Shown: positions 625-43,900, numbered from the stretch's first letter. The stretch is 64,000 nucleotides of DNA from an uncultured Rhodobacterales bacterium (GCA_964603315.1 CAZRUV010000001.1:592-64591); one strand, 5' to 3'. Translations and numbers: made by a program. Notes: generated by a model from the sequence alone, not told the origin.

Positions 625-2894
625 TGCCTGATCTGCTGATCGAACTCTTTTCCGAGGAAATCCCCGCGCGCATGCAGATGCGGGCGGGCGAAGACCTGAA
701 GAAACTGGTGACAAACGGGCTGGTCGAGGCCGGGCTGACCTATGCCTCCGCCGCCGCGTTCTCCACGCCGCGCCGTCTGTGCCTCACGGTCGAAGGCCTG
801 CTGGACCAAAGCCCCACGACACGGGAAGAGCGCAAGGGCCCGCGCGCCGACGCCCCCGACAAGGCCATCGAAGGGTTTCTGCGCGGAGCGGGTCTCACCC
901 GCGATCAGGTCGAGGAACGCGAGACGGCGAAAGGCGCCGTGCTCTTTGCCGTGATCGAAAAGCCGGGCCGCCCGGCGGGTGACATCATCGCCGAGGTGCT
1001 GGAGGCCACGATCCGCCAGTTCCCCTGGCCCAAATCCATGCGGTGGGGGGCAGGCAGCCTCAAATGGGTGCGTCCGCTGCAATCGATCCTGTGCATCCTG
1101 ACAGACGAGGCGGGGCACAGTGTGGTGCCTCTGGACGTGGACGGCATCCAATCCGGCGACACGACCGAAGGCCACCGGTTCATGGCCCCGGGACGCTTTG
1201 CGGTGACGGGTTTTGATGACTACAGCGCGAAACTCAAGCGCGCCCACGTAGTGCTAGACCCGGCAGAACGGGCCAAGGCGATCTGGCACGACGCCACCAA
1301 CGCCGCCTTTGCCAGCGGTCTTGAGGTCGTCGAGGACAAGGGGCTTCTGGCCGAGGTCGCGGGCCTCGTCGAATGGCCCGTGGTTCTGATGGGCCGCATT
1401 GGTGACGACTTTCTGGAATTGCCGCCCGAGGTGCTGCAAACCTCGATGAAGGAGCACCAGAAGTTCTTCTCCGTCCGCAACCCCAAGACGGGCCGGATCG
1501 AGCGTTTCATCACCGTCGCCAACCGCGAGACGGCCGATGACGGTGCGACGATCCTCGCCGGCAACGAAAAGGTGCTGAGCGCGCGTCTGGCAGATGCCAA
1601 ATTCTTTTGGGAAAACGATCTGCGTGTGGCCAAGTCCGACATGAGCGTCTGGACCGACGCCCTGAAAAACGTGACCTTCCACAACAAGTTGGGAAGCCAG
1701 GCCGACCGCATCGCGCGCGTCGCCGCTCTGGCCCGCGAACTCGCCCCTGTCGTCGGTGCCGACCCCGATCAGGCCGAAGACGCCGCCCGCCTCGCCAAGG
1801 CCGACCTCAGCAGCGAGATGGTCTATGAATTCCCCGAATTGCAGGGCCTCATGGGCCGCTACTACATCGCGGCAGCGGGCAAGGACGACGCGGTGGCTGC
1901 CGCCGCTCAAGAACACTATTCCCCGCTGGGGCCGTCGGATGATGTGCCGACAGCGCCAGTTTCGGTTGCTGTGGCTTTGGCCGACAAAATGTATACACTG
2001 GCAGCCTTCTGGGCGCGTGATGAGAAACCAACGGGGTCTAAGGACCCGTTTGCGTTAAGGCGCGCAGCGCTCGGCGCAATTCGCTTAACTTCCAAGGATT
2101 TGGCTGGACTAAATTTGAGAGCTGTCATTGCACAAATTCTAATTGGGTTTTCCACTAGCGAGACCCTTGCACGTTGGGCCGACCAGCATAATGCGAATGA
2201 AGAAGCTACAAAAAATCTGCTATACGACGCCTACAAAGATGGCTCGTTGGACGAGGCAGAGTGGCAGTTGCGATGGGAGGAGGCAGAATTGGTCGCCTCG
2301 TATTTCGACGAAGAAAAGCAACGGGTTCCTGCAAACCAAGATATCTTGGACAAGTATTCTGCAATTGCAGATGACTTGTTAAGCTTCTTCCACGACCGCC
2401 TAAAAGTCTACCTCCGCGATCAAGGCATCCGCCACGACATCATTGACGCCTGCATCGCGATGCCCCAAAACGACGACCTCACCCTCCTCGTCAAACGCGC
2501 CACGGCGCTCAACGACACCCTCAAAACCGACGACGGCGAAAACCTCATCCAGGGGTTCAAACGCGCCAACAACATCCTTACTCAGGCCGAGGAGACGGAC
2601 GGCGTCGAATACTCCTATGGCGCCGACGAAAAATTCGCCGAAACGGACGAAGAGCGCACGCTCTTCGCCGCCCTCGACCAGGCAGAGGCCAAAATCGCCC
2701 CGGCAATGGAAGCACAGGACTTCGCCACCGCCATGCACGCCATGGCAAATCTCCGCACCCCTATCGACGCCTTCTTCGAAGCCGTCCAGATCAACGCGGA
2801 CAACCAGACCATCCGGCGCAACCGCCTCAACCTGCTCAGCCGCATCCGCACCCTTTGCCTCTCCGTCGCCGATCTCACCAAACTCGAAGGCTGA
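624..2894 (+). CDS. glyS: Glycine--tRNA ligase beta subunit, with a low-GC in-frame segment
   Basis: MPDLLIELFSEEIPARMQ, WPKSMRWG, EFPELQGLMG, PTGSKDPFALRRAA, RRNRLNLL. ATG overlaps the upstream TAA. Confidence 0.97.
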   Translation: MPDLLIELFSEEIPARMQMRAGEDLKKLVTNGLVEAGLTYASAAAFSTPRRLCLTVEGLLDQSPTTREERKGPRADAPDKAIEGFLRGAGLTRDQVEERETAKGAVLFAVIEKPGRPAGDIIAEVLEATIRQFPWPKSMRWGAGSLKWVRPLQSILCILTDEAGHSVVPLDVDGIQSGDTTEGHRFMAPGRFAVTGFDDYSAKLKRAHVVLDPAERAKAIWHDATNAAFASGLEVVEDKGLLAEVAGLVEWPVVLMGRIGDDFLELPPEVLQTSMKEHQKFFSVRNPKTGRIERFITVANRETADDGATILAGNEKVLSARLADAKFFWENDLRVAKSDMSVWTDALKNVTFHNKLGSQADRIARVAALARELAPVVGADPDQAEDAARLAKADLSSEMVYEFPELQGLMGRYYIAAAGKDDAVAAAAQEHYSPLGPSDDVPTAPVSVAVALADKMYTLAAFWARDEKPTGSKDPFALRRAALGAIRLTSKDLAGLNLRAVIAQILIGFSTSETLARWADQHNANEEATKNLLYDAYKDGSLDEAEWQLRWEEAELVASYFDEEKQRVPANQDILDKYSAIADDLLSFFHDRLKVYLRDQGIRHDIIDACIAMPQNDDLTLLVKRATALNDTLKTDDGENLIQGFKRANNILTQAEETDGVEYSYGADEKFAETDEERTLFAALDQAEAKIAPAMEAQDFATAMHAMANLRTPIDAFFEAVQINADNQTIRRNRLNLLSRIRTLCLSVADLTKLEG

Positions 2895-2900
2895 TCCGTC

Positions 2901-2960
2901 CTTCATCTTGCCAAATAAACTCCGGGGGGAGGCGCGGAGCGCCGGGGGGCAGCGCCCCCA
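2901..2960 (+). repeat. Dispersed repeat, copy 1 (CTTCATCTTG head, A-tract, G-tracts, terminal GGGGGCAGCGCCCCC hairpin)
   Basis: CTTCATCTTGCCAAATAAACTCCGGGGGG...GGGGGGCAGCGCCCCC. Both ends are nearly identical to 40866-40911(-) and it resembles 12894-12938(-) and 13050-13101(+). Confidence 0.85.
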
Positions 2961-2973
2961 AAAAACCGCCTGA

Positions 2974-3016
2974 CCTGTGCACAGCCTGTGCACAGGTTGT
3001 GTACAGCTTGTGACAG
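2974..3016. repeat. Tandem 11-bp-period palindromic units (TGTGCACA-like) x4
   Basis: CCTGTGCACAG CCTGTGCACAG GTTGTGTACAG CTTGTG-ACAG. Confidence 0.75.
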
Positions 3017-3094
3017 GCAAAACAGCACTGACGTAACCCCTTGTAAGGTCAAGCCGACTGTCTATGCTGCGCTCCGAACAGGAGACGTGCCGCA

Positions 3095-5632
3095 GTGCAG
3101 AATAACCCGCATACGACACTGGTGACCCCAAGCGCGCCGATCGCCGCCGAAACCCATGGCGGGCGCGCTAAGTGCTTGCAAAGACTGGCGCGTCTCGACC
3201 TGCCGGTGCCCACGACCGTGGCCCTTTCCTTCGACGCCGTGCTGGACATCGCCAAGGGGCATTTCCCGGATATCGACGCCATTCTCAGCCAGTTTCCGTC
3301 CGACGCGCTGCTTTGCGTCCGCCCCTCGTCCGAAGACCCCGATTGGGGCGGCCCGTCTGCCGTCCTCAACATCGGCATGAACGACCAACGCTATGAAACG
3401 CTCTGCGGCACGCTGGGCGTGGAGGCGGCAACGGCCCTTTTCTGCCGCTTTGTCCAAAGCTACGCGATCCATGTGGATCGCCTCGATCCGGATATGTTCG
3501 ACGGCATCGAAGGCGAGGGGGCCGAAGCCCTGCGGCGCGCGCTCGAGGCCTACGAGATCGAAACGGAAACCGCCTTTCCCGCCACCCGGGCGGCGCAACT
3601 CACAGGTGTGCTCAAATCCATGGCCCGCGCGTGGGAAGGCACCTCTGCCCGCCTGCTGCGGCAGGCCAAGGGCGCGCCTGCGGATGCGGGCCTCGGCCTC
3701 GTCATTCAGCAGATGGCCTTTGGCATGGGGCAGGGCGAAAGCGGGTCGGGCGTGCTGCAACTTGTGTCCTCGAAAACCGGCAAGCCTCAGATAACAGGGC
3801 GCTATCTGCGTCAAAGCCAGGGCCGTGATGCGCTGATGGGCGATGCACGCAGCCTCTATATCACCCGCGATCCGCGTGGTCCATCGCTCGAAGAACATGT
3901 GCCCGAAGCCTTTGCCCAACTGGTCAGCCATGCGCGCGAGATGCGCGACAAGCTGCGCGAGGAAATGCAGGTCGAATTCACCATCGAAAACGGTCAATTG
4001 CACATTCTGGACGGCGTACGCGTGTCCCGGTCGTCGCGCGCGGCGGTCCGGATCGCGGTGGAGCTTGCGCGCGACGGGATCATCCCGCCGCAAGAGGCGC
4101 TGATGCGGGTCGAGCCGCGCACGCTCAATGAATTGTTGCACCGTCAGGTCGACCGGCACGCCAAGCGAGATGTGATCGGCACCGGCATCGCCGCCAGCCC
4201 GGGCGCTGCGACGGGCCGTGTCGTGTTTTCCGCCACCGAGGCGCAGGCCAGCGCCGCCCGGCGCGAGGATTGCATCCTCGTGCGCCGGGAAACCGCGCCC
4301 GAAGATATCCGGGGCATGCACGCTGCCAGTGCGGTGATCACCGAACGTGGCGGTGTGACAAGCCATGCGGCCGTGATCGGCCGGGGCATTGGCCTGCCTT
4401 GCGTCGTCGGGGTCGGTGACATGCGGTTTGAACCCTCCAAGGGCAAGCTGATCGCCGAGGACGGGCGCGAGATCTGTGCGGGCGACGTGATCACCGTGGA
4501 TGGCACCAACGGCACGATCCTGCACGGCGCACCGGCCATGCTCGAAGCGGCGCTGGATGACGCATTCACCGCGCTGATGGAATGGGCGGATGCGGAGCGT
4601 GACATCGACATCCGCGCCAATGCCGACACGCCCGCCGACGCGCAGACAGCCCGCAATTTCGAGGCGCAGGGCATCGGCCTCTGCCGGACGGAACACATGT
4701 TTTTCGAGCCCGGTCGCCTGACCGTCATGCGCGAAATGATCTTTGCCGAGACAAGCGATGACAGGCGCGCGGTTCTCGAACGCCTGCTGCCGATGCAGCG
4801 CGATGATTTCACACAGCTCTTTCGCATCATGCAGGGCAAGCCCGTGTGCATCCGCCTGTTTGACCCGCCTCTGCACGAGTTTTTGCCAAGCGACCGCAAC
4901 GGCCAGCGCGAACTTGCAGACGCGCTTGATCTGCCGCTTTCGGATGTGACCCGGCGGGTCGAAGAGATGGCCGAGTACAACCCCATGCTGGGGATGCGTG
5001 GCGTGCGCATGGGGATCACGGTGCCCGAGATTTACGACATGCAGGCCCGTGCCATTTTCGAGGCCACGATCGAGGCCAGCCGTGAGGGCGACCCGGTTGT
5101 GCCGGAAATCATGATCCCTCTGGTCAGCGCCAAACGCGAAGTGGAACTGGTGCGGGCGCGCATCGACGGCGTGGCGGCTGCCGTGACGGCCGAAAAGGGC
5201 GCGCGCTTTGACTACCGCCTTGGGGTGATGGTCGAAACACCGCGCGCGGCGCTGCGGGCAGGCGAGATTGCGCAGTATTGCAGTTTCCTGAGTTTCGGGA
5301 CCAATGACCTGACACAGATGACCTACGGGCTGAGCCGTGATGACGCCGGTCGGTTCATGTCGGATTACGTACGTCAGGAGGTCTTTGCCGAGGATCCGTT
5401 CCATTCGCTCGATGTGGAGGGCGTGGGCGAACTGCTGCAGCTTGGCTCAGAACGGGGCCGCGCGGCGCGGCCCGATCTGACGCTGTCCATCTGTGGCGAA
5501 CATGGCGGCAACCCCGAATCAATCGCCTTCTGTCGACAGGCCGGTTTCGACTATGTGTCCTGTTCTCCGTTCCGGGTGCCCGTGGCGCGGCTAGCGGCCG
5601 CACAACTGGCCATATCCCACAAGATCGGGTAG
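3095..5632 (+). CDS. ppdK: Pyruvate phosphate dikinase-like PEP-utilising protein with divergent N-terminal domain
   Basis: GGVTSHAAV phospho-His motif, GIGLCRTEHMF, FLSFGTNDLTQ, ICGEHGG. GTG start after AGGAGA. Confidence 0.85.
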   Translation: MQNNPHTTLVTPSAPIAAETHGGRAKCLQRLARLDLPVPTTVALSFDAVLDIAKGHFPDIDAILSQFPSDALLCVRPSSEDPDWGGPSAVLNIGMNDQRYETLCGTLGVEAATALFCRFVQSYAIHVDRLDPDMFDGIEGEGAEALRRALEAYEIETETAFPATRAAQLTGVLKSMARAWEGTSARLLRQAKGAPADAGLGLVIQQMAFGMGQGESGSGVLQLVSSKTGKPQITGRYLRQSQGRDALMGDARSLYITRDPRGPSLEEHVPEAFAQLVSHAREMRDKLREEMQVEFTIENGQLHILDGVRVSRSSRAAVRIAVELARDGIIPPQEALMRVEPRTLNELLHRQVDRHAKRDVIGTGIAASPGAATGRVVFSATEAQASAARREDCILVRRETAPEDIRGMHAASAVITERGGVTSHAAVIGRGIGLPCVVGVGDMRFEPSKGKLIAEDGREICAGDVITVDGTNGTILHGAPAMLEAALDDAFTALMEWADAERDIDIRANADTPADAQTARNFEAQGIGLCRTEHMFFEPGRLTVMREMIFAETSDDRRAVLERLLPMQRDDFTQLFRIMQGKPVCIRLFDPPLHEFLPSDRNGQRELADALDLPLSDVTRRVEEMAEYNPMLGMRGVRMGITVPEIYDMQARAIFEATIEASREGDPVVPEIMIPLVSAKREVELVRARIDGVAAAVTAEKGARFDYRLGVMVETPRAALRAGEIAQYCSFLSFGTNDLTQMTYGLSRDDAGRFMSDYVRQEVFAEDPFHSLDVEGVGELLQLGSERGRAARPDLTLSICGEHGGNPESIAFCRQAGFDYVSCSPFRVPVARLAAAQLAISHKIG

Positions 5633-5784
5633 CAGGCTCCGAGCACGCCACTGAATGTACCGCGCGGCACAATGATCTCCCTTGCGCGCAGACCGGCTAT
5701 GCACGCCCGTTGCAGCCCGAAAACTGGACGAACGTAAATATTTTCTTTAAATGCGCCGAGTTTGTACTTGACTGGGGGGTTGTC

Positions 5785-6435
5785 ATGCGTGGGACATTTT
5801 TGCGGCTTGGTTTGGCCGCAGCCTGCATTGCTGCGTCTGTAACGGCTGCGATTTCCGATACATCGCAATCTGCCGGAAACACTTTGCGTGCAGCGGAAGA
5901 GCGTGGGCTGCGCGCAGTGCCGTCCGACCGATTGCAGGCGATGCTGACCGAGCCCAAGGTCGCCGCGGACAGCCCGGTGAAGATGTCGCGCAGCTGGGTT
6001 GATGCACAGCCCGCCGCCTCCGGCAACGCGCATTGGCGGTGCCTGAGCGAGGCGCTCTATTTCGAGGCCCGTGGCGAAACGGTCAAAGGACAGTTTGCTG
6101 TTGCCGAAGTGATCATGAACCGTGTGAAAAGCGCGCGGTTTCCCGACAATGTCTGCGGCGTGATCAACCAGGGAACGGGGCGCAAGTATCAGTGCCAGTT
6201 CACATATACCTGCGACGGCAATCCTGAGCGGATCAGCGAGCCGCAAGCCTGGGATCGTGTGTCGAAGATCGCGCGCGCCGTTCTGGACGGGCGTGCGCCT
6301 GAACTGACGCAGGGCGCCACGCACTACCACACGACCGCTGTGCGGCCCCGCTGGAGCCGGGTCTATACCCACACGGCCTCGATCGGGGTGCACCGGTTTT
6401 ACCGCCACACCTCCCGCACGGCATCCAACAACTAG
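5785..6435 (+). CDS. Cell wall hydrolase (SleB/Hydrolase_2 family)
   Basis: Signal peptide; CLSEALYFEARGE, VIMNRV, CQFTYTCDG, GATHYH, IGVHRFY. Confidence 0.92.
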   Translation: MRGTFLRLGLAAACIAASVTAAISDTSQSAGNTLRAAEERGLRAVPSDRLQAMLTEPKVAADSPVKMSRSWVDAQPAASGNAHWRCLSEALYFEARGETVKGQFAVAEVIMNRVKSARFPDNVCGVINQGTGRKYQCQFTYTCDGNPERISEPQAWDRVSKIARAVLDGRAPELTQGATHYHTTAVRPRWSRVYTHTASIGVHRFYRHTSRTASNN

Positions 6436-6536
6436 GCGATATGCCGCAATCACGCGTCACAGGGCCGCCTTTGGCCCTGTTGCCTGCGGGGTCAGAGCGC
6501 TAGAAGGGCGCTGTCACGACAACCAGGACGCCGTCA

Positions 6537-7462
6537 ATGCCCTCTGAAATCCACCTTGCCTTTGCCCACCCGTCCGAGCGGGCGGCCGCCACGGCGGATG
6601 CCACGCCGCTGGATCGCATTTCGGTGCGCGATCATATTGTCGAGGTCGAAATCGGTGCCTTTCAGGCCGAGCGGGGGGTCACGCAGCGCATCTGTTTCAA
6701 CATCGTGGTCGAGGTGCGCCCGCAGGGGCAGGCGCTGGACGATGATGTGGACCGCATCCTGAGCTATGACAAGGTAACCGAGGCGATCACGTTCGAGCTT
6801 GCGGCAGAACGGCTCAACCTTCTGGAAACGTTGGCGGAACGGGTCGCGGACCGTATCCTGATCGAACCACAGGCGATGCGTGTCTTTGTCCGCATCGAAA
6901 AGCTGGACCGCGGCCCCGGTGCCCTTGGTGTCGAGATCGTGCGCGCCCGCATCGCGGCAGGGCCGTTGCCGGACGATGTGGATCAGGATACGCCTCATCC
7001 CGAATTGGTGTATCTGTCAAACGACGCCATCGCGTCAGATCACCTCGGGGGGTGGATTGATCAACTGCAAGCGATGGGCCGTCCGCTCATCTTTTGCGTC
7101 GGACCTGCGGATAGGGATGCGCCAGAGGCCAGCCACCCGCTGGCACAACGGCGCATAGATCTCCTGGCCATCGAACAAAACGCATGGGTGCTCGCGGCGC
7201 GCGATGCGCGCTGCAAGGTCGTCGACACGCGGACCGAGCTGGATTGGGCCATGCGCAATGGGCAAATCTGCGTCTGGGCACCGTCGAAGGTCGTGCTTGA
7301 CGCGGTCGACGGGCCGTCTGCAAAGGGGGCAGACGCGGTGGCGCTCGCCTCGTGGTTTGCAGCCACCTTTGACGCGCGCGAGATGCTGGTGATCGGCGAT
7401 GACGGACCTGTCGCGGCACCGGTGGCGCTGCGCCACATGCCGGTCAGCCAAGCCGCGATCTG

Positions 7463-7463
<1 letters not shown>
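6537..7463 (+). CDS. folB: Dihydroneopterin aldolase with extra C-terminal domain
   Basis: EIGAFQAERG..QRICFN, SYD, LNLLETLAERVA, VRIEK..GVEIVR; directly upstream of folP. Confidence 0.85.
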
Positions 7464-8442
<979 letters not shown>

Positions 8443-8446
<4 letters not shown>

Positions 8447-9789
8447 CAAAGCTCTTTGGCACCGACGGGGTGCGTGGCACGGCCAACATCGCCCCGATGA
8501 CTGTGGAAATGGCGCTTCGGATTGGCGCAGCTGTGGGACGGTATTTCCGCAGGGACGCGCAAGGCGTCCACCGCGTTGTGATCGGCAAGGACACGCGCCT
8601 GTCCGGCTACATGTTTGAAAACGCCCTGACGGCCGGACTGACCAGCACGGGCATGAACGTGCTGCTGCTTGGCCCCGTGCCGACGCCCGCAGTCGGTTTG
8701 CTGACGCGGTCGATGCGCGCTGATCTTGGCGTGATGATCTCGGCCAGTCACAACCCCGCAGAAGACAACGGGATCAAGTTTTTCGGCCCGGACGGGTTCA
8801 AGCTGAGCGATGCGGCAGAGGCCGAGATCGAGCGGCTGGTGGCGGACGGGGTCGACCCCGTCCCGTCCGGCGAGATCGGGCGGGCCAAGCGCATCGATGA
8901 CGGACGCTTTCGCTATATCGAGCGGGTGAAGTCGTCGTTTCCGCGCGCCATGCGTCTGGATGGGCTCAAGGTTGTGGTCGACTGCGCCAACGGCGCTGCG
9001 TACAAGGTCGCGCCCGAAGCTCTTTGGGAACTCGGCGCCACCGTGATCCCCATCGGCGTTGCCCCCAACGGATACAACATCAACGAAGGCTGCGGGTCGA
9101 CGCATCCGCAAACGGCCGCCGAGGCGGTTGTCGCGCACGGTGCGGATGTGGGCATCTGCCTTGATGGCGACGCGGACCGCGTGATCCTGCTGGACGAAAC
9201 CGGCGCCGTTGCCAATGGCGATCAGTTCATGGGCCTCATGGCGGCGCGTTGGGCCGAAGAGGGTGCGCTGAAAGGCAACGCACTTGTGGCAACGGTCATG
9301 TCCAACCTCGGCCTTGAGCGGTTTCTGGAAGGGCGTGGCCTGCGGCTGGAACGCACCGCTGTGGGCGACCGCTATGTTGTGGAACGCATGCGCACGGGTG
9401 GGTTCAACCTTGGCGGCGAGCAATCCGGGCACATCGTGATGACGGATTATGCCACGACAGGCGACGGGCTGCTGGCCAGCCTGCAGTTCCTCGCCGAACT
9501 GGTACGCACCGGCAAACGCGCCAGCGAAGTCTTGCATGTGTTTGAGCCGGTGCCGCAGCTATTGAAAAACGTCCGCTTTTCGGCGGGGCAGACCCCGCTG
9601 GAGATGGAGGCTGTCAAATCCGCCATTTCAGATGCCGAAGGGCAGTTGACTGGCAATGGCCGCCTGCTCATCCGCAAATCCGGGACAGAACCGCTGATCC
9701 GCGTCATGGCCGAGAGCGAAGATGCGGCGGTGCTCGAGGCCAGCGTCGACCGCGTCGTGCAGGCCGTTCAGGACGCGGTGTCCGCCTGA
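8443..9789 (+). CDS. glmM: Phosphoglucosamine mutase
   Basis: [36 protein letters not shown]. Confidence 0.97.
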
Positions 9790-10868: not shown

Positions 10869-12380
10869 TCAATCCCCCTCGGCCACACCCGCTGCACGTG
10901 CCCTGGCGCGGCGGGCCCGATAGCTTGGCAACACGACGAGGATCGCGGCGATGACCAGCAGCCCGAGGGTCATGGGCCGCTCCCAGATGAAGGCGACACC
11001 GTCATACAGTTGCATGGAGCGGGCAAAGTTGTCCTCCATCATACCGCCAAGAATGAAGCCGATCAGCAGCGGCGCCAGCGGATAGTCGGCAAATTTCAGG
11101 GCCGTGGCGCAGATGCCGAAGCCCACAAGCAAAAGCAGTTCGGTTGCGTTGTTCTGCCCGATATACGCACCCATCAGGGTGAAAAAGAGGATGAACGGGA
11201 TCAGGTAGTTGCGCGGGACCGCGAGCACTTTGGCAATGTAGGGGATCAGGGGCAGGTTGAGGATCAGGAGCACCAGATTGCCGATGAACATCGACATGAT
11301 GACCGCCCAGAACACCTGTGGCGCGTCGATCATCAGCCGTGGCCCGGGCGTCACGTTCAGCGCGATCAGCGCGCCCAGCAGGATGGCCGTGGTGCCGGAG
11401 CCGGGAATGCCAAGCGTCAGGAGCGGCACAAAGGACCCGGTACAGGCCGCGTTGTTGGCGGTTTCGGGTGCGGCGAGGCCCTTGATTGAGCCTTTGCCAA
11501 ACTCGTCCTGTTCGCTTTTCGGCGCGATGTTGCGCTCAACCGCGTAGCCGAGGAAGCTGGCAATGGTCGCGCCTGCGCCGGGCAGAACTCCGATGAAAAA
11601 GCCCTGCAGCGATTGGCGGCCGACGACCGGCGCGATGGCACGTGCTTCGGCTCCGGTGATGCGCAGATCCTTGATCTCGCCGTCGTCGCCCTTGAGGTCT
11701 TTTGGCTTCAGGACGAGAAACAGCGCCTCGGGCAGGGCGAACATCGCCATGGCCAACGTGATAAAGCCAAAGCCGGATTGCAGGTCCATGATCCCCATGG
11801 TGAACCGGGGCAGGTTGAACAGCGCACCTTCGCCCACGGTCGCCATGATCAGGCCGAGGATCGTCATGATCATGGCCTTTGCGACCTGGCCGGTTCCGGC
11901 AAAGGCGGCGATGGCCGACAATCCCACGACCATCAGCGCGAAATACTCCGCCGAATGGAAAAGCAGGGCAACCGATGACAGCGCAGGGGCAAAGATCATC
12001 AGCAGAATGGCTCCGATCGTGCCGCCTGCAAAGCTGGCGATGGCCGCGATGGTCAGCGCCTTGCCGGCCTTGCCCTGTCGCGCCATGGGGTATCCATCGA
12101 AACTGGAGGCAACGGTGCCGGCGACACCGGGGGCGTTCAGCAGGATCGACGAGGTCGAGCCGCCGAAAATTGCGCCGTAATAGACGCCCGCCAACAGAAT
12201 GAGCGCCGCCGACGGGTCCCCCATGGAGATGGCCACCGGGATCATGATGGCGATGATCGACATCGGGCCCAGGCCCGGCAGCATTCCGATGAATGTCCCG
12301 ATCAGGCAGCCTGCGACAACCATCGCGAGGTTTTGAAACGACAGGGCCGTGGTCAGGCCGATCAGCAGTCCTTCGAGCAT
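10869..12380 (-). CDS. tctA: Tripartite tricarboxylate transporter large permease
   Basis: GMLPGLG, YYGAIFGGS, SFDGYPMA, APETANNA, PLLTLGIPGS. Confidence 0.95.
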   Translation of the reverse strand: MLEGLLIGLTTALSFQNLAMVVAGCLIGTFIGMLPGLGPMSIIAIMIPVAISMGDPSAALILLAGVYYGAIFGGSTSSILLNAPGVAGTVASSFDGYPMARQGKAGKALTIAAIASFAGGTIGAILLMIFAPALSSVALLFHSAEYFALMVVGLSAIAAFAGTGQVAKAMIMTILGLIMATVGEGALFNLPRFTMGIMDLQSGFGFITLAMAMFALPEALFLVLKPKDLKGDDGEIKDLRITGAEARAIAPVVGRQSLQGFFIGVLPGAGATIASFLGYAVERNIAPKSEQDEFGKGSIKGLAAPETANNAACTGSFVPLLTLGIPGSGTTAILLGALIALNVTPGPRLMIDAPQVFWAVIMSMFIGNLVLLILNLPLIPYIAKVLAVPRNYLIPFILFFTLMGAYIGQNNATELLLLVGFGICATALKFADYPLAPLLIGFILGGMMEDNFARSMQLYDGVAFIWERPMTLGLLVIAAILVVLPSYRARRARARAAGVAEGD

Positions 12381-12381
12381 G

Positions 12382-12864: not shown

Positions 12865-12893
12865 CGTGGTGTCCTTTGTTGTTCGGTCGGACC

Positions 12894-12938
12894 GGGGGCC
12901 AGCCCCCGGACCCCCGGGATGTTTTCAGCAAGAGGAAA
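12894..12938 (-). repeat. Dispersed repeat, copy 2
   Basis: Reverse complement: TTTCCTCTTGCTGAAAACATCCCGGGGGTCCGGGGGCTGGCCCCC. Confidence 0.85.
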
Positions 12939-13049
12939 GACAATTTTAACCAATTTGTCTGCTTCTGGTCGTGCGGTACAGGCTGGGAAGCCGATGACCG
13001 CGCAAGGGGAAGGTTTGTCTTCCTAGGGAAGGGGGGATTTCAGTCTCCC

Positions 13050-13101
13050 CTTCCTCTTGCTGAAAATATCCTGGGGAGCGCGAGGGGGTGAAACCCCTCG
13101 C
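13050..13101 (+). repeat. Dispersed repeat, copy 3 (inverted relative to copy 2)
   Basis: CTTCCTCTTGCTGAAAATATCCTGGGGAGCGCGAGGGGGTGAAACCCCTCGC; shares TTCCTCTTGCTGAAAA(C/T)ATCC with copy 2. Confidence 0.8.
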
Positions 13102-17361: not shown

Positions 17362-18400
<1,039 letters not shown>

Positions 18401-18500
18401 TTATATGTGTGTATTGTGCTCTGGTCAGCGTTGTATTTTGAGTTTATTTGGCAAGATGAAGATTGGATCATGCGCCAAACAGTAATATCCGGAAGAAATC

Positions 18501-34549: not shown

Positions 34550-34616
34550 CGCGGAATTCCTTTTTCGTCGCTGATGGTGATATAGCAGTCACTGCCCAAA
34601 GCAAAAGAGGCTGCCC

Positions 34617-35279: not shown

Positions 35280-35281
35280 GC

Positions 35282-37162: not shown

Positions 37163-37320
37163 GGGGTGGGACAAGGGCGCGGGGGCCATGCTCCGATAAA
37201 TGACATGAGCGCCAGTACTACCGCGTGTGACCTTTTGGGGCAAGCGGCGGTCGGTGCCGATTGACCTCGCGCTTGGGCGCGCTAGGGTGCCGCGCGACAG
37301 ATCAGTTCGGAACCTCCCCC

Positions 37321-38529
37321 ATGTCCCAAACCCCGATCGCCCGGCACGGGCGCGAATATCTTGCCATTCCGGGCCCTTCGGTGATGCCCGATGCCGTCTT
37401 GCGTGCGATGCACCGCGCCGCGCCCAACATCTACGAGGGTGAACTGGTCGACATGGCGGCGGGCATCGTTCCGGATTTGCGGGCTGTGGCGCGCACGGAC
37501 GGGCATGTGGCCATGTATATCGGCAACGGCCATGCGGTCTGGGAGGCTGCGCTGGCCAATACCGTGGCGCCCGGTGATCTCGTTCTGGTGCCAGCCACAG
37601 GCCGGTTCGGGCATGGCTGGGCAGATATGGCGCAAGGGCTGGGGGCGGAAACGCAGATCATCGACTTTGGCAAATCCGCTCCGGTGGATCCTGCGCGCGT
37701 GGCAGAGGCGCTGCGTGCCGATACAAGCCACCGCATCAAGGCGGTTCTGGCCGTGCACGTCGATACCTCAACGTCGATCCGGAACGATATCAAGGCGTTA
37801 CGCGACGCTCTGGATGAAACGGATCACCCTGCGCTCCTGATGGCGGATTGCATCGCCTCGCTCGGATGCGACCGGTTCGAAATGGACGCCTGGGGCGTCG
37901 ATGTCATGGTCGCAGGCTGTCAAAAGGGCCTGATGGTGCCCCCGGGCATGGGTTTTGTCTTTTTCAGTGACAAGGCCGCCGCTGTGCGTGCGGCGATGCC
38001 GCGTGTCAGCCGGTACTGGGACTGGAGCCCGCGGGCCAACCCGCAGGAGTTCTACCAGTATTGGAACGGCACCGCGCCCACGCATCACCTGCACGGGCTG
38101 CGCGTCGCGCTTGATATGATCCACGATGAGGGGATCGAAGCGGTCTGGCACCGCCATGCGGTGCTGGCGCGCGCCATTTGGGCTGCCTGTGATCGCTGGG
38201 CGGACGGGGGCGCCTTTGCGATGAACGTGTCGGATCCCGCGCATCGCAGCAACGCGGTAACAGCCCTCCGCCTGCCAAGCCCGCTGGGGACCGGACTGCG
38301 CCGGTGGGTCGAAGGGCATCTGGGCCTGACGCTTGGCATCGGGCTGGGCATGGCGACGCCGGGCGACCCGGCGGCGGACGCGTTCTTTCGTCTCGGGCAT
38401 ATGGGACATGTGAACGGACAGATGGTGCTGGGCCTGCTTGGCGGGATCGAAGCGGGTCTGACGGCCCTCGATGTGCCCAGAGGTGCGGGTGCCGTTGAAG
38501 CTGCTGCGGGGGTGATCGCCGCAGGCTAG
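37321..38529 (+). CDS. Class V aminotransferase (serine/alanine-glyoxylate type)
   Basis: YLAIPGPS, HVDTST, DCIASLG, GCQKGLMVPPG, FRLGHMG. Confidence 0.9.
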   Translation: MSQTPIARHGREYLAIPGPSVMPDAVLRAMHRAAPNIYEGELVDMAAGIVPDLRAVARTDGHVAMYIGNGHAVWEAALANTVAPGDLVLVPATGRFGHGWADMAQGLGAETQIIDFGKSAPVDPARVAEALRADTSHRIKAVLAVHVDTSTSIRNDIKALRDALDETDHPALLMADCIASLGCDRFEMDAWGVDVMVAGCQKGLMVPPGMGFVFFSDKAAAVRAAMPRVSRYWDWSPRANPQEFYQYWNGTAPTHHLHGLRVALDMIHDEGIEAVWHRHAVLARAIWAACDRWADGGAFAMNVSDPAHRSNAVTALRLPSPLGTGLRRWVEGHLGLTLGIGLGMATPGDPAADAFFRLGHMGHVNGQMVLGLLGGIEAGLTALDVPRGAGAVEAAAGVIAAG

Positions 38530-38744
38530 ACCTGCTTGCCGCGCCGGATCGACGCCGCTTGCCGGGCAGCGGCCCACGCGCGCATGCGGTCCAACAGGTG
38601 GTTGACGCCAAGCGCCAGCAGCATCGCCGCGATCAACCCCCAGATGGCCCAGATGGCCACCAGAATCCAGGTGATGTTCACCCCGAACATGACGATACAT
38701 GCGTTGGTATAGTTGGGTGCCTGTCCCTGGGGATGCTGATCCAT
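38526..38744 (-). CDS. Small membrane protein
   Basis: 72 aa with two hydrophobic helices; fills the gap downstream of the aminotransferase. Confidence 0.65.
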   Translation of the reverse strand: MDQHPQGQAPNYTNACIVMFGVNITWILVAIWAIWGLIAAMLLALGVNHLLDRMRAWAAARQAASIRRGKQV

Positions 38745-38799
38745 GCTGGCCTCACGGGGGTTGCCTGTCGGTCAGACTATAGTGCGACATTCTGTCCTG

Positions 38800-39915
38800 T
38801 CATCTCGATTCTGTGTGATCGCGCGCCTCGGCCAGGGCGGGGGGCAGCGCGGCTGCAAATGCATCGAGATCCGCGTCCGTGCCGCAGCTGATGCGGATGC
38901 ACCTGTTTTGCGGTGCGGCAAAGGGCATGCGCACGAAGATGTCGCGTGCAATCAGCCCGTCGAGTACGGCCTTGGCAAAGGTTCCATCGCCACCGCAGTC
39001 GATGGCAACAAAGTTCGCCGCAGAGGGCAGCGCGGTCAGGCCGTTTTCGCCCGCGATATCTGAAATACGTCTGCGCGCCACTTCGATTTTGGCGAGAACA
39101 TCGCGCAGGTGGGCCTGATCCCGCAACGCTGCGAGGGCGCCGTTTTGCGCCGCACGGTTGACCCCGAAATGATTGCGCACCTTGTTGAATGCGGATGCCA
39201 GCTCTGCCGGGGCCAGCGCATAGCCGACCCGCGCGCCTGCCATGCCGTAGGCCTTGGAAAAGGTGCGCATGCGGATCACTCTGGGGTCCTCGATGGCAAT
39301 GTGCGGGATCGCGTCGTCGGGCGCGCAGTCTGCGTAAGCCTCGTCGAGGACAAGAAGCGTGCCGCCGGGCAGTTCGTCCAGCGCGGCGACAATGTCCGTC
39401 CCCTTGTGCCAACTGCCCATCGGGTTGTCGGGATTTGCGAGGTAGACCAGCTTGGCCTCGACCTCCGCAGCCCTGGCAAAAAGGGCGGCCATGTCTTCGC
39501 GGTCGTCCGCGTAAGCGACCTTGTGTATCTGGCCGCCGAACCCGGCCACATGGTAGTTGAACGTCGGATAGGCCCCGTCGGACGTGACCACCGCATCGCC
39601 GGGCGCGACAAAGAGCCGGACCACGTAGCCCAGCAGGCCGTCTATCCCCTCGCCAACCACGATGTTGTCGGGCGACACGCCGTGATGCGCGGCCAAAGCG
39701 ACGCGCAGGTCATGGTTTTCCGGATCGCCATAGTTCTGATGATCGGTCCGGGCCATCGCGGCCAATACATCGGGGGAGGGGCCAAAAACGCTCTCGTTTG
39801 CGCCGATGCGGGCCTGAAAAGGACGGCGCCGCGCCCGTTCCTGCGCTTCGGGGCCGACAAAAGGCACGGTGGAGGGCAGGCTGGCGGCGAGCGGGGTCAG
39901 GCGGTAGGTCGTCAT
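38800..39915 (-). CDS. PLP-dependent aminotransferase class I/II (HisC-like)
   Basis: IGANES, ANPDNPMG, LDEAY, RTFSKAYGMAGARVGY. Confidence 0.9.
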   Translation of the reverse strand: MTTYRLTPLAASLPSTVPFVGPEAQERARRRPFQARIGANESVFGPSPDVLAAMARTDHQNYGDPENHDLRVALAAHHGVSPDNIVVGEGIDGLLGYVVRLFVAPGDAVVTSDGAYPTFNYHVAGFGGQIHKVAYADDREDMAALFARAAEVEAKLVYLANPDNPMGSWHKGTDIVAALDELPGGTLLVLDEAYADCAPDDAIPHIAIEDPRVIRMRTFSKAYGMAGARVGYALAPAELASAFNKVRNHFGVNRAAQNGALAALRDQAHLRDVLAKIEVARRRISDIAGENGLTALPSAANFVAIDCGGDGTFAKAVLDGLIARDIFVRMPFAAPQNRCIRISCGTDADLDAFAAALPPALAEARDHTESR

Positions 39916-40026
39916 GTGGCAAGGGCTAACCTGGCACGCGGATCACGGCAAGTGGCAGGCGCCGTGACGTTCCGCTGGCGCGCAAGCGCGTTTTGGGCTT
40001 GTCTGTGCGCCAAAGAGGAGCCCCCC

Positions 40027-40821
40027 ATGACAGACGCGCGCGTGACCGTGACCTATGCCAATCACATAGCCCATGTCGAATTGACCCGACCGGACAAGAT
40101 GAATGCCGTGGATCAGGCCATGATCGATGCGGTGATTGCCGCGGGACAGGAAGTGGCTGCCTCCGATGCGCGGGTGTGTGTGATTTCGGGGCAGGGCAAG
40201 GGGTTCTGTGCCGGGATCGATATTGGCGGTCTGGGTGCAATGATCGGCAAGGACCCGAATGACCTGCTGATGCCGCGCACGCATGGGGACGGCACGACGA
40301 ACCAGTGGCAGGAAGTCGCGATGGTCTGGGCGCGCCTGCCACAACCCGTGATCGCCGCAGTACATGGGGTGTGTTTCGGGGCGGGGATGCAACTGGCCCT
40401 TGGCGCGGACATCCGCATTGCCGCGCGCGATGCGAAGCTGGCCGTGATGGAGATGAAATGGGGGATCGTGCCGGATATGGGCGGGATGGTCCTGCTGCCG
40501 CGTCTGGTGCGGTCTGACGTGTTGCGCTGGTTGACCTACACGGCTGATCCGGTTTCTGCGCAGCAGGCGGAGGCGTGGGGGCTGGTCACGGAACTGGCGG
40601 ATGATCCGCTGGCGGCAGCGATGGCGTTGGCGGACGCGCTGACGCTGAAGTCGCCAAATGCACTGCGCGCGGCCAAGGCCCTGATCGGCTTTGCCGAGAC
40701 GCGGGGTGCCGAAGAGGTTCTGGTCGAGGAAAGCCGGGTACAGGCAGGGCTCATGGGCACGCCGGAGCAAATGGAGGTCGTGGCCGCGACATTTGCCAAG
40801 CGCGCGCCTGTGTTCGACTGA
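40027..40821 (+). CDS. Enoyl-CoA hydratase/crotonase family protein
   Basis: LTRPDKMNA, FCAGID, HGVCFGAG, MEMKWGIVPDMGG; RBS GAGGAG. Confidence 0.92.
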   Translation: MTDARVTVTYANHIAHVELTRPDKMNAVDQAMIDAVIAAGQEVAASDARVCVISGQGKGFCAGIDIGGLGAMIGKDPNDLLMPRTHGDGTTNQWQEVAMVWARLPQPVIAAVHGVCFGAGMQLALGADIRIAARDAKLAVMEMKWGIVPDMGGMVLLPRLVRSDVLRWLTYTADPVSAQQAEAWGLVTELADDPLAAAMALADALTLKSPNALRAAKALIGFAETRGAEEVLVEESRVQAGLMGTPEQMEVVAATFAKRAPVFD

Positions 40822-40865
40822 TCCAACGGACGCGCTGACGCGCGACGCGATTCATTTTTGTGATT

Positions 40866-40911
40866 GGGGGCGCTGCCCCCAAACCCCCGGAGTTTTTTGG
40901 GCAAGATGAAG
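40866..40911 (-). repeat. Dispersed repeat, copy 4
   Basis: Reverse complement CTTCATCTTGCCCAAAAAACTCCGGGGGTTTGGGGGCAGCGCCCCC, starting a few nt after the valS stop. Confidence 0.85.
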
Positions 40912-40914
40912 GGG

Positions 40915-43900
40915 TCAGAGTTCCCTGAGGCGCGTGAGCGCGTCCTGGAGCTTGGTTTCTTCTTCTTCGCGCAGGGCGAGGTTGGCTTTGGTTTCTTCGA
41001 CCACTTCGGGCGGCGCGCTGGTCGCGAATTTCGGGTTCTTGAGCCGTCCGCGCAGGCCGCCGAGTTCCTTGGCGAGTTTGCCGAGCGTTTTTTCGAGCCG
41101 TGCGACTTCTTCTTCGACGTCGATCACGTCCGCGAGGGGCAGGCCGAAGGTGCCGCCGGAGATGGCGAGCGCCACCGTGCCTTTGGGGAAGTCGTCCGCT
41201 TCGGTCAGGCTTTCCAGGCGGGCGAAGCGATGGATCAGCGCCTTGTTCCGGTCGTAGGCGCCTTTGGCTTGGGGCTCGAACCCTTTGACGACGCAAGGAA
41301 TGTAGGCGCCTGCGGGCACGTGCATCTGGGCGCGGGCAGAGCGGATGGCCTCGATCAACCTGATGACCCAGTTGAGTTCTGTATCGGCGTCGGTGTCGAT
41401 GAGTTCGTCGCCATATGTCGGCCAGTCTGCGTGGATCAGGCGCTTGGGGCGGGCTTTCTGGCCCCAAAGCTCTTCGGTGATGAAGGGCATGATCGGGTGC
41501 AGCAGGATCAGGCACTGGTCGAGCGCCCAGGCGTAGGTCGCCTTGGTTTCTTCGATGTCTTCGGGTGTGCCTTCGTCGAAGATGGGTTTGGTGAACTCGA
41601 GGTACCAATCGCAGAAGGTGTTCCAAGTGAAGGCGTAGAGGGCGCTGGCCGCGTCGTTGAAGCGGTATTCGGTGAGGGCTGTGTCGACGGCGGCGCGGGT
41701 TTTGGCGATCTCGCCTTTGATCCAGCGGTTGAGTGGGTGTTTGGTGTCGGGGATGGCAGCTGAGTGCGGCAGGTCGAAGACGCCGCGCATCTCGCCGTAG
41801 CTGGCGGCGTTCCACAGCTTGGTGCCGAAGTTGCGGTAGCCTGCGATGCGTTGGGTGTCGAGTTTGAGCGTGCCGCCCAAGCTGGCCATCGCGGCGGAGG
41901 AGAAGCGCAGGGCGTCGGCGCCGTATTCCTCGATCAGGTCGAGCGGGTCCATGACGTTGCCGGTGGATTTCGACATCTTCTTGCCCTTGGCGTCGCGGAC
42001 GAGGCCGTGCAGGTAGACGGTGTCGAAGGGGATTTTGTCGGTGATCGCCAGTTGCATCATCATCATGCGGGCGACCCAGAAGAACAGGATGTCCTGGCCT
42101 GTGACGAGGTCACTCGTTGGGAAGTATTTGGCAAGCTCGGGAGTGTCCTCGGGCCAGCCGAGGGTGCCGATGGGCCAGAGGCCGGAGGAGAACCAGGTGT
42201 CTAGGACGTCGGGGTCTTGGAAAAACGGCGTAATGTCGTTTTCGCCATCTTCTTCTGTGTAGTTTTCGTAGGCGTCCTGCTCATCGCTGAATAGTTTTGC
42301 AGTAAGCGGTTCAAATTCAGATCCGTAGTACAACCGTGCTTCGGCAACTGCTTCATCGAATGAAGATCCGCAGAACGGTTTCCACGCTTGAATGCGGTCT
42401 TTCGCGCGGGCGCCCGCGCCGCCCCAAGCGACGCTGCCGTCCTCGGTCTTGGCAGGCCCATACCAAACCGGGATCTGATGGCCCCACCACAGCTGGCGCG
42501 AGATGCACCATGGCTCGATGTTTTCGAGCCAGTGATAGTAGACCTTCTCGCCGCGCTCGGGCAGGATTTTGACATCGCCGTTTTTGACCGCGTCGAGCGC
42601 GGGGCCTACGATTTTGTCCGTATCAACAAACCATTGGTCGGTGAGCAAGGGTTCGATGACGACTTTGGAGCGGTCGCCGAAGGGTTGCATGATGGATTTG
42701 TTTTCGACGTGAGGGATGGTGGGTTGCAAACCCACCCTACCGTCGGCGTCGGCTTCTTCCCATTCCGGGTTCAGGATCATGACCGCGTTGCCCTCGGCCG
42801 TGATGTCGGCGACGACGCGTGCGCGCGCCTCTTCGCGGGTCAGACCGCGGTATTCCTCGGGCACCAGGTTCATCGCAGCGATCATCGCCTCATCGAACTC
42901 TTGTTCGCCGTTGGCGATAGCTTGGGCCACGGCGGCCTCTTCGGCGTAGGATTCGCCGTCGGCGCGCATGTTCGCCTTGGTGTCCATCAGGTTGTACATC
43001 GGGATGCCGCCGCGTTTGGCGACCTGATAGTCGTTGAAATCATGCGCCCCGGTGATCTTGACCGCGCCCGAGCCGAAATCCGGGTCGGGGTATTCGTCGG
43101 TGATGATCGGGATCAGGCGGCGGTGCTCTTTCGGCCCGACCGGGATTTCGCAGAGTTTTCCAATGATTGGGGCATAGCGTTCATCTGATGGGTGAACCGC
43201 GACAGCGCCGTCGCCCAGCATGGTTTCGGGGCGCGTGGTGGCAATGGAGATGTAGTCACGCTCTTCTTCCAGCGTGACGTTTCCGTCTTCGTCCTTCTCG
43301 ACGTAGGTGTAGGTTTCGCCGCCCGCGAGCGGGTATTTGAAGTGCCACATGTGGCCAGGGACTTCGATGTTTTCGACCTCAAGATCGGAAATCGCCGTCT
43401 CGAAATGCGGGTCCCAGTTCACCAGCCGCTTGCCGCGGTAGATCAGCCCCTGATTGTACATCTCCACGAAGACCTTGATCACCGCGTCGTGGAAATTGCC
43501 CTCGTTCCCTGCAGGCGCGCCGGGAGCGCCGGACATAGTGAAGGCCTCGCGCGACCAGTCGCAGGAGGCGCCGAGGCGCTTGAGCTGGTCGCGGATGGTG
43601 CCGCCGCTTGTCGCCTTCCACTCCCAGATTTTCTGGGTGAATGCCTCGCGCCCCAATTCGGTGCGTGAGGGTTGCTGGGTTTCGGCCAGACGCCGTTCGA
43701 CGACCATCTGCGTGGCGATGCCTGCATGGTCCGTGCCCGGCTGCCAAAGCGTGTCAAAGCCGCGCATGCGGTGCCAGCGCGTCAGGATATCCTGCAACGT
43801 GTTGTTGAACGCATGGCCCATGTGCAGCACGCCCGTGACGTTGGGTGGCGGGATCATCACGCAATAGCTGTCCTCACGCGACGCGTTTGCGCCCGCCTTG

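What the first reader, a model, noticed from the sequence alone, without database searches (positions are those of the whole stretch)
1900..42460. Candidate targeted-variation system: an oriented repeat points at low-GC in-frame cassettes in two aminoacyl-tRNA synthetases
Seen: glyS and valS are unrelated genes 38 kb apart on opposite strands but share one architecture. Each has a low-GC in-frame segment (glyS ~2085-2375, valS ~42220-42450), then a coding-strand C/A-skewed tail, then within ~7 nt of the stop the same element CTTCATCTTGCC-A-tract-CTCCGGGGG...GGGGGCAGCGCCCCC. Two related copies flank a ~110-bp spacer in the tct operon. In all three loci the CTTC(A/C)TCTTG head faces the atypical DNA: + copies lie to its right and - copies to its left. 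Inference: the element may be a cis signal (nicking, priming or ssDNA site) that marks hotspots where segments of essential genes are repeatedly swapped, possibly to escape phage factors or toxins aimed at translation. I know of no described mechanism for this, and no cognate enzyme is encoded in the window. Only three loci support it.
Basis: partly seen in the sequence, partly recalled or inferred. Interest (0 to 1): 0.82.

Follow-up and report, generated by a model that had tools for sequence, protein, structure and literature searches.

The report
Small RNA specifying genome-wide DNA repeats
The repeat beside these two synthetase genes is one of about 60 copies whose variable 11-base core matches, genome by genome, an 11-base stretch of a small structured RNA gene (one copy lies in this window), so the repeats are likely targets of an undescribed RNA-guided process; the swappable synthetase cassettes are real but appear to be a largely separate phenomenon.

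Summary
The window has five copies (one was missed) of a repeat with 63 copies in the genome. The glyS and valS segments are real, swapped, in-frame cassettes. The proposed link is weak: low-GC DNA is not enriched on the head side, and cassettes occur equally in genomes that lack the repeat. The main result lies in the tct 'spacer'. It encodes a 29-nt conserved hairpin, an 11-nt variable segment and a terminator-like hairpin. Across 149 loci (123 different segments) the segment matches the flanking repeats, including the upstream one outside the predicted transcript (96 of 149, against 8 when segments are swapped). Mismatches are RNA-G against DNA-A 116 times and the reverse 4 times. Four segment-derived patterns were each found only in the genome that carries that segment. 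A homologue is an expressed R. capsulatus sRNA. Each repeat is the centre of a strand-skew peak whose polarity fits an R-loop. No partner protein was found. Separately, cassette junctions show a sign-reversing skew like that of break repair. This scan saw such cassettes and repeat-centred skew before on other DNA; my look-ups did not return the RNA-repeat code.

The parts
12973..13001 (+). Conserved 29-nt hairpin (scaffold) of the predicted small RNA: two stems around an ACA/GAUG internal loop
   Evidence: not in Rfam
13002..13012 (+). 11-nt variable segment (putative guide) GCAAGGGGAAG, matching the CTTCCTCTTG repeat subfamily with G against A at position 6
13013..13048 (+). Terminator-like hairpin, the predicted 3' end of the RNA
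   Evidence: hairpin within 6 nt of the segment in 143 of 149 loci; fold; the expressed homologue ends after it
12944..12972 (+). Predicted promoter: TTAAC-type boxes near -38 and -27, with A at -11 and T at -7
   Evidence: position counts over 149 loci; the reading as a CtrA box is recalled, not tested
12890..12938 (-). Upstream repeat: GC hairpin, fixed block (12917-12923), 4 free bases, 11-mer (12928-12938); lies outside the predicted transcript
13050..13101 (+). Downstream repeat: 11-mer (13050-13060), 4 free bases, fixed block, GC hairpin
2901..2959 (+). Dispersed repeat after glyS: 11-mer 2901-2911, free bases 2912-2915, fixed block 2916-2922, hairpins. Its matching RNA gene is outside the window (G000:C47:10762-10903, minus strand)
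40866..40911 (-). Dispersed repeat after valS (11-mer 40901-40911, fixed block 40890-40896)
18440..18461 (-).
2085..2375 (+). Swappable low-GC helical cassette in GlyS, just after helix H19 of the HD domain; recoded flank from about 1950
2376..2894 (+). C-rich glyS tail; the skew is highest next to the cassette
42220..42450 (-). Variable segment of ValS between WGHQIP and [11 protein letters not shown]; low-GC core 42220-42380
40915..42215 (-). C-rich valS tail

Best explanation
Each genome's repeat variant matches an 11-base segment of a small hairpin RNA gene, and this RNA likely guides an unidentified host protein to those DNA repeats. A target is a GC hairpin, a fixed block GRRTWTW, four free bases and the 11-mer (shown). 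The RNA would pair with the CTTC strand and displace the GAAG strand (inferred from sequence sense and wobble polarity). The displaced strand would then be unwound or replaced over roughly 1-2 kb on both sides, which would leave the observed G/T enrichment on that strand (footprint shown, cause inferred). The same activity likely spreads or maintains the repeats, with the RNA gene bracketed by its own targets as a RAYT gene is by its REPs (inferred). The synthetase cassettes are a second, largely independent process. Old cassette families are exchanged by recombination between short conserved flanks (shown by discordant relationships). The strand that runs 5'->3' into the cassette is G/T-shifted on each side (shown), as expected if breaks at the cassette are resected or if donor DNA stays single-stranded there (inferred).
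For: Covariation between the segment and the downstream repeat: 10 of 11 pairs show compensatory changes, 98% of cells pair, and G-U sits at position 6 in 21 of 28 sequences. In 149 loci with 123 distinct segments, the upstream repeat matches in 96 (8 when swapped) and the downstream repeat in 88 (7 when swapped). 17 loci match upstream with no complement within 187 nt downstream. Wobble polarity, with targets chosen by identity only, is 116:4 upstream and 124:4 downstream. The four free bases are identical between the two flanks in only 5 of 71 loci. Segment-derived patterns gave 21, 8, 2 and 50 hits in the genome that carries the segment and 0 in each of the four others. G000 has two RNA loci and two repeat subfamilies; G041 likewise. 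The RNA is found in 47 of 57 repeat-rich and 28 of 63 repeat-poor family genomes (p=2.5e-5). R. capsulatus sRNA00507 is a homologue on the predicted strand that ends after the hairpin, with 16 reads in wild type and 2 in the ctrA mutant (PMC5546546 Table S1). Skew at fourfold sites peaks at the repeats: +0.35 and +0.31 in same-sense genes, -0.22 and -0.27 in opposite-sense genes, baseline -0.02. It has the same sign on the head side in 51 of 56 and on the tail side in 45 of 55 copies, on both replichore orientations, with a deamination-type spectrum. Cassettes: the junction skew step is 1.17 in 35 low-GC against 0.05 in 54 native glyS alleles, and 0.76 in 23 against 0.14 in 45 for valS. The polarity is the same as at resected human meiotic breaks (PMC7615360).
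Against: No partner protein was found, and no binding, R-loop or cleavage was observed. G-U preference is at least as typical of RNA-RNA pairing, and in 88 of 149 loci the segment can pair in cis with the downstream repeat if transcription reads through. 36 of 149 loci match neither flank under my fixed spacing. 10 repeat-rich genomes lack the strict RNA pattern and 28 RNA-bearing genomes have fewer than 5 hits to the repeat pattern; both patterns are strict and miss variants. An 11-bp R-loop alone cannot explain a 1-2 kb footprint on both sides. Repeats could instead have been inserted into zones that were already skewed: four valS alleles carry a repeat with no tail skew. The expression evidence is one low-count RNA in another species, below that paper's fold-change cut-off. 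Related genomes are not independent, so the p-values overstate.
Confidence: 0.5

Rival explanations
1. The RNA is a trans-acting sRNA that pairs with transcripts carrying the CTTC strand of the repeat, controlling decay or termination, or it is a cis switch that pairs with its own downstream repeat. The skew then has another cause.
For: Strong G-U polarity. The segment and downstream head form a stable RNA helix. Repeats are intergenic, 40 of 41 for the main subfamily, mostly between tandem genes.
Against: Repeats sit in both orientations to transcription in similar numbers. The skew follows repeat orientation, not gene strand. 17 loci have no downstream complement. The expressed homologue ends before any downstream repeat. 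A fixed block at a constant 4-nt distance from the match looks like a protein-read DNA motif.
Confidence: 0.22
2. The RNA is a ready-made primer, and the repeat is a single-strand initiation or restart site. The RNA anneals, is trimmed, and primes strand-displacing synthesis, as in ColE1-type priming (recalled).
For: An 11-nt match is primer-sized. Outside Rhodobacterales the unit lies next to Rep3 initiators in 2 loci and a MobA/MobL relaxase in 1, among 11 outlier loci examined. The displaced strand would be the G/T-rich one.
Against: One-way synthesis predicts a one-sided footprint, but the footprint is nearly symmetric. The segment is followed by a hairpin that would have to be removed. 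Most chromosomal loci have ordinary metabolic neighbours.
Confidence: 0.15
3. One reading: the oriented repeat is the cis signal that drives cassette swapping in essential genes.
For: A same-sense repeat follows glyS in 18 of 20 genus loci. Among family alleles with a repeat after the stop, orientation is 12:0 in low-GC and 5:4 in native alleles (p=0.02, post hoc cut-off). A reversed repeat precedes ileS, which has a short variable insert, in 9 of 20 genus loci at score 15 or more. Three synthetase genes lie on the head side of 63 repeats (p about 0.006 if 20 such genes are assumed).
Against: No genome-wide head-side enrichment. No association with genome-wide repeat presence, and independent-pair counts of 1.4:0.1. 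No association in valS. The junction skew is the same without a repeat. The uvrD insert has no repeat within 14 kb.
Confidence: 0.08
4. The unit is a protein-less mobile element with inverted ends. Solo repeats are its scars, and the match between segment and ends reflects folding of the mobile single strand, not guiding.
For: The unit is present in 5 of 28 tct loci as one insertion and sits at many unrelated loci. One genome has only the two flanking copies of a variant.
Against: The free bases differ between the two ends in 66 of 71 loci. The upstream copy has the same sense as the segment and cannot pair with it in cis. A conserved promoter-like pattern precedes the motif and a homologue is transcribed. 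No RAYT, IS110 or TnpB match was found in G000.
Confidence: 0.05

Closest known systems
REP / REPIN elements with RAYT (TnpA-REP)
   Same: Short intergenic hairpin repeats in tens of copies, mostly between tandem genes, often overlapping a stop codon (PMC3733652 passages). The specificity factor is flanked by its own repeats in inverted orientation (recalled).
   Different: No GTAG or CGTC tag. Y1_Tnp was not found in G000 and passed the cut-off in 1 of 18 genus genomes. What the repeats flank is a predicted RNA gene, and the variant follows its 11-nt segment.
IS110 bridge RNA (IS621)
   Same: A non-coding RNA carries base-pairing specificity for a DNA target, and IS621 targets REP sequences (PMC11208158 passages).
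   Different: One contiguous segment after a 29-nt hairpin, instead of target and donor loops with left and right guides. No recombinase beside any recurrent locus, and PF02371 was not found in G000.
TnpB/Cas12f and nuclease-dead derivatives (TldR) (recalled)
   Same: A scaffold 5' of a short guide, and a T-rich motif 5' of the match on the guide-sense strand.
   Different: The scaffold is only 29 nt, four free bases separate the motif from the match, and PF07282 was not found in 3 of 5 RNA-bearing genomes including G000.
CIR intergenic repeats of Caulobacter and other alphaproteobacteria (recalled; paper not held)
   Same: Long inverted-repeat intergenic units in alphaproteobacteria tied to cell-cycle regulation.
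   Different: Could not be compared. I recall no RNA-repeat sequence code for them.
Hypervariable in-frame inserts in aminoacyl-tRNA synthetases
   Same: A low-GC, helical, swappable module at one site next to a tRNA-reading motif.
   Different: Here a sign-reversing strand skew and near-invariant junction sequences across 35 genera were measured. The listings I saw do not mention these.

Membership tests
REP/RAYT | Short intergenic hairpin repeat in many copies | tested here: met
   63 copies, nearly all intergenic
REP/RAYT | GTAG or CGTC terminal tag | tested here: not met
   the consensus is hairpin + GRRTWTW + N4 + 11-mer
REP/RAYT | Cognate Y1 HUH transposase gene flanked by the repeats | tested here: not met
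   none found in G000 (85% complete); 1 of 18 genus genomes over the cut-off; the flanked unit is non-coding
IS110/IS1111 bridge RNA systems | RNA segment that covaries with a DNA target | tested here: met
IS110/IS1111 bridge RNA systems | IS110 recombinase encoded with the RNA | tested here: not met
   no recurrent recombinase neighbour in 121 loci (40 of them held only 300 bases of flank or less); PF02371 not found in G000, present elsewhere in 4 of 4 relatives
IS110/IS1111 bridge RNA systems | Bipartite target-binding and donor-binding loops | tested here: not met
   a single contiguous 11-nt segment
TnpB/Cas12f/TldR | TnpB-family protein in genomes that carry the RNA | tested here: not met
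   over the cut-off in 1 of 5 genomes, none found in G000
TIGR-Tas / box C/D systems | Nop-domain protein | tested here: inconclusive
   PF01798 found in 0 of 5 genomes, but that model may miss distant bacterial Nop domains
Retron, DGR or other RT-templated systems | Reverse transcriptase, and targets that are exact copies of the RNA | tested here: not met
   RVT_1 not found in G000, G054 or G158; targets differ from the segment by G-to-A
Known Rfam RNA family | Match to a covariance model | tested here: not met
   no match at the locus by gathering score; in six other loci only two weak matches to unrelated families, far below their gathering scores
RNA-guided DNA-binding system (function) | Reprogrammable protein binding or R-loop at the target | not testable with these tools
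   needs experiment
Intein or homing-endonuclease insert (cassettes) | Nuclease or splicing domain in the cassette | tested here: not met
   no Pfam match over the cut-off in 87 cassettes and no PHROG match in 48; no DUF559 found in G000

The most novel reading that the evidence does not exclude
Rhodobacterales carry a domesticated RNA-guided DNA-opening system with a 29-nt scaffold and a freely reprogrammable 11-nt guide. It is switched on by the cell-cycle and gene-transfer regulator CtrA, works with a host protein of no known guide-RNA family, and licenses local strand replacement or recombination at tens of chosen chromosomal sites, including the ends of synthetase genes whose surface cassettes are swapped.
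Probability: 0.3. Interest if true: 0.97.

Novelty: categorically new. Interest (0 to 1): 0.86.

Why it matters
A very compact natural guide RNA (about 75 nt) with at least 123 natural specificities would be a new class of programmable system, and it occurs in genetically tractable models (Rhodobacter, Paracoccus, Ruegeria). It would also make an old question testable, namely what specifies and maintains species-specific REP-like repeats where no RAYT exists: change 11 bases and see whether binding and the mutational footprint move. Separately, the sign-reversing skew at the synthetase cassettes is a first physical clue to how essential genes exchange surface modules, and it can be tested on the other synthetase cassettes this scan has noted.

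Tried and rejected
Head-side enrichment of low-GC DNA or of contig ends: none. Base-pairing between the G-rich and C-rich cassette flanks: own pairs are no stronger than cross-genome or synonymously shuffled pairs. A general effect of AT-rich DNA on its neighbours, such as selection for terminating spurious transcripts: ordinary low-GC segments in G000 show skews of 0.06 or less. Cassettes as random or de novo DNA: the amino-acid make-up is protein-like and the other frames are closed. Cassette homologues outside GlyS: none among 1.84 billion representatives, and only a weak Atlas hit. uvrD as a third hotspot: the 33-aa insert is absent from 29 of 29 relatives fetched and shows no skew. ileS: a short variable insert with no clear step. 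Phage carriage: the 10 viral hits to the repeat pattern are chance matches with no hairpin, mostly inside genes, and the 1 hit to the RNA pattern lacks the context. Candidate enzymes not found in G000: Y1_Tnp, DUF559, RVT_1, IS110, TnpB and Nop; the single GIY-YIG hit lies in a 630-aa frame, probably UvrC. Laying assemblies on glyS showed the same cassette in one other sample and no alternative allele, but contigs cannot show absence. The single-sequence fold was poor. The alignment fold gives the cassette as helices at pLDDT about 50-70. Ten literature searches returned no description of this repeat, this RNA or the cassettes; subscription journals and bioRxiv supplements were not covered.


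Full report
Setting. The window is G000:C1:592-64591 of an 85%-complete assembly. Several of the named GlyS hits are Tateyamaria and the rest are mostly other Rhodobacterales. The most surprising part is the tct 'spacer'.

The repeat. The head motif occurs 4 times exactly in the window against 0.12 expected. A matrix trained on the genome finds 63 copies and none in a simulated genome, five of them in the window. Copies are intergenic, mostly between tandem genes, and lie in both orientations to transcription. A pattern search finds it in all 34 genus genomes searched and in a bimodal fashion across 120 genera of the family. Each genome has its own variants. The anatomy, read on the GAAG strand, is a GC hairpin, a fixed block GRRTWTW, four free bases and an 11-mer.

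The skew at the repeat. At fourfold sites, for the 57 best copies, (C-G)/(C+G) on the coding strand is +0.35 and +0.31 within 250 bases on either side for genes in the CTTC sense. It is -0.22 and -0.27 for opposite genes, against a baseline of -0.02, and fades over 2-3 kb. The sign is the same on the head side in 51 of 56 copies and on the tail side in 45 of 55. It holds on both replichore orientations (0.12 and 0.35), and twofold sites shift as in replication skew, so the GAAG strand is G/T-rich. By established knowledge that is the footprint of a strand that is often single-stranded.

The tct spacer. The pair of repeats with its spacer is one unit, present in 5 of 28 genus tct loci with a conserved spacer. 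Spacers of such pairs from other genera share a motif: a 29-nt hairpin with an ACA/GAUG internal loop, at window 12973-13001. A strict pattern finds it 1-4 times in 75 of 120 family genomes and in an estimated 3,300 stretches of the genome collection. Of 121 loci read (120 from that scan, one viral), 98 are named Rhodobacterales. Rfam has no match. Upstream lie TTAAC-type boxes and A-11/T-7. A hairpin follows within 6 nt of the next 11 bases in 143 of 149 loci.

The 11-base code. Those 11 bases vary, with 123 versions in 149 loci, and mirror the flanking repeats. Against the downstream repeat, 10 of 11 pairs show compensatory changes and 98% of cells pair (28 sequences chosen for having a downstream repeat). 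That alone could be a cis RNA helix. But the upstream repeat, which lies before the promoter and has the same sense as the segment, matches in 96 of 149 loci against 8 when segments are swapped. In 17 loci it matches with no complement within 187 nt downstream. With targets chosen by identity only, mismatches are segment-G against target-A 116 times and the reverse 4 times upstream, and 124 against 4 downstream. This is the asymmetry of an RNA pairing to the CTTC strand with G wobble. The four free bases agree between the two flanks in only 5 of 71 loci, so the flanks are not simple duplicates. Genome-wide, patterns built from four segments gave 21, 8, 2 and 50 hits in the genome that carries the segment and none in the four others (a fifth planned pattern was not run). 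G000 has two RNA loci, at tct and on C47, matching its two repeat subfamilies; the copies after glyS, valS and ilvC belong to the C47 segment. RNA and repeats co-occur: 47 of 57 repeat-rich against 28 of 63 repeat-poor genomes. Against this, 36 of 149 loci match neither flank at my fixed spacing, and both patterns miss variants.

Expression and context. In Table S1 of PMC5546546 (supplement rows read), R. capsulatus sRNA00507 is a 74-nt intergenic RNA with the 3' half of the scaffold, a segment and the hairpin, on the predicted strand. It has 16 reads in wild type and 2 in the ctrA mutant, below that paper's cut-off, and the main text does not mention it. That the TTAAC boxes are CtrA sites is recalled, not tested. 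Among 11 outlier loci examined, the unit lies next to Rep3 initiators twice and a MobA/MobL relaxase once. No partner protein was found: Y1_Tnp, DUF559, RVT_1, IS110, TnpB and Nop were not found in G000, and recurrent neighbours are mostly metabolic genes at shared insertion sites.

How it likely works. Shown: the sequence code, its polarity, and the footprint on the strand that has the RNA's sense. Inferred: the RNA pairs with the CTTC strand, a protein reads the hairpin and fixed block, and the GAAG strand is displaced and exposed over 1-2 kb by unwinding or strand replacement. I put this at 0.5. An RNA-RNA reading (0.22) fits the G-U bias but not the orientation-dependent, transcription-independent skew. 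A primer reading (0.15) fits the plasmid contexts but not the two-sided footprint. Whether the repeat causes the skew or is placed into skewed zones is open. Native glyS alleles with a repeat show skew rising toward it, while four valS alleles with a repeat have no tail skew.

The cassettes. In glyS the segment between ALRRAALG and FHDRLKV differs in the 21 of 22 genus loci that covered it (23-129 aa). 79 cassettes of 45 aa or more form 52 clusters, and the one large cluster (23) has native codon use. Among the top protein hits, 117 cassettes form 72 clusters. The window's cassette is 33-43% identical to cassettes in GlyS proteins whose flanks are only 71-80% identical, while pairs with 96-100% identical flanks carry unrelated cassettes. 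So old families are exchanged. They are protein-like, helical and without known domains. The site follows helix H19 of the HD domain, which reads the tRNA acceptor stem (alignment; PMC9908026 passages). The valS segment varies around a shared core motif, with vertically kept native families beside low-GC ones.

Skew at the cassettes. In the first 25 codons after low-GC glyS cassettes, fourfold C is 0.79-0.85 and G 0.07-0.11, against 0.47 and 0.40 in native alleles, and the 25 codons before shift toward G. The step across the cassette has median 1.17 in 35 low-GC and 0.05 in 54 native alleles, with 22 state changes on the tree and independent pairs 5.7:0 (median p 0.03). It is the same in genomes with fewer than five repeats. 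These 89 loci are 29 best-scoring hits plus 60 further hits taken largely in rank order; truncated and lower-ranked ones were left out. valS repeats the result, 0.76 against 0.14 in 68 of 69 loci fetched. Junction sequences are nearly invariant across genera and do not pair with each other, and ordinary AT-rich segments show no such step. The polarity equals that at resected meiotic breaks (PMC7615360 passages). A single-stranded donor that pairs on one flank first would give the same pattern, so the cause is not settled.

Genome-wide it fails: 12 low-GC segments on the head side, 10 on the tail side, 22 +/- 5 at random; no tie to repeat presence; none in valS. A local tie at glyS remains (p=0.055 strict, 0.005 loose and post hoc; orientation 12:0 against 5:4). 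Repeat orientation there agrees with the local skew sign, so the repeat may assist exchange or may be drawn to the exposed strand.

Novelty and verdict. The system works most like RAYT-REP with an RNA in place of the protein gene, and resembles bridge RNA and TnpB guides in logic. It fails the membership tests for each. Ten literature searches and six answered look-ups in this scan's notes found no description of the RNA-repeat code; cassettes and repeat-centred skew were noted before on other DNA. I rate it categorically new as a candidate, interest 0.86, with the guiding function still to be shown.

Noticed in passing
G000:C47:10762-10903 (minus strand; L495): Second RNA locus with a divergent scaffold; its segment matches the main repeat subfamily (41 sites with the fixed block). 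The site between an acyl-CoA dehydrogenase and a GST gene is the commonest RNA site in the family.
   Followed up: yes
G000:C49:5294-7819 (L157), codons about 135-225: uvrD/pcrA carries a low-GC recoded segment with a 33-aa insert absent from 29 relatives; no repeat nearby and no skew.
   Followed up: yes
L188-L207, ileS near residue 240; G000:C61:1878: ileS has a variable insert of 0-26 extra residues, low-GC in a few alleles, and a reversed repeat before its start in about half of the genus loci.
   Followed up: partly
L118 and L119 (glyS loci of G147 and G101): Other hairpin repeat types follow glyS here. The whole region is skewed the opposite way, yet the local step at the cassette keeps its polarity.
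   Followed up: partly
G000:C27:16957: A repeat sits between genes that look like the gene transfer agent terminase and portal (recognised by eye), with strong skew on both sides (0.47, 0.47).
   Followed up: no
window 17663-18367 (minus strand): The ilvC-like frame is only 234 aa, shorter than the roughly 340 aa I recall for this enzyme; it may be broken or an assembly error.
   Followed up: no
G000:C46:1-126: The contig with the ileS C-terminal half begins with about 40 codons that resemble a histidine-kinase fragment, probably an assembly mis-join.
   Followed up: partly
L394, L407, L415: Outside Rhodobacterales the RNA unit lies beside Rep3 initiator genes (one with iteron-like repeats) or a MobA/MobL relaxase gene.
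   Followed up: partly
L211, L213-L221, L227 (tctC-tctB gap): Genus loci without the RNA unit carry a TTAA-N7-TTAA box and a short palindrome in the same gap, and tctB is strongly C-skewed in most of them.
   Followed up: no
window about 42700-42800 (valS): A second, shorter variable segment lies 50-150 codons before the main valS cassette.
   Followed up: no
window 11218-11345: Rfam Cis8 sRNA match antisense to tctA.
   Followed up: no
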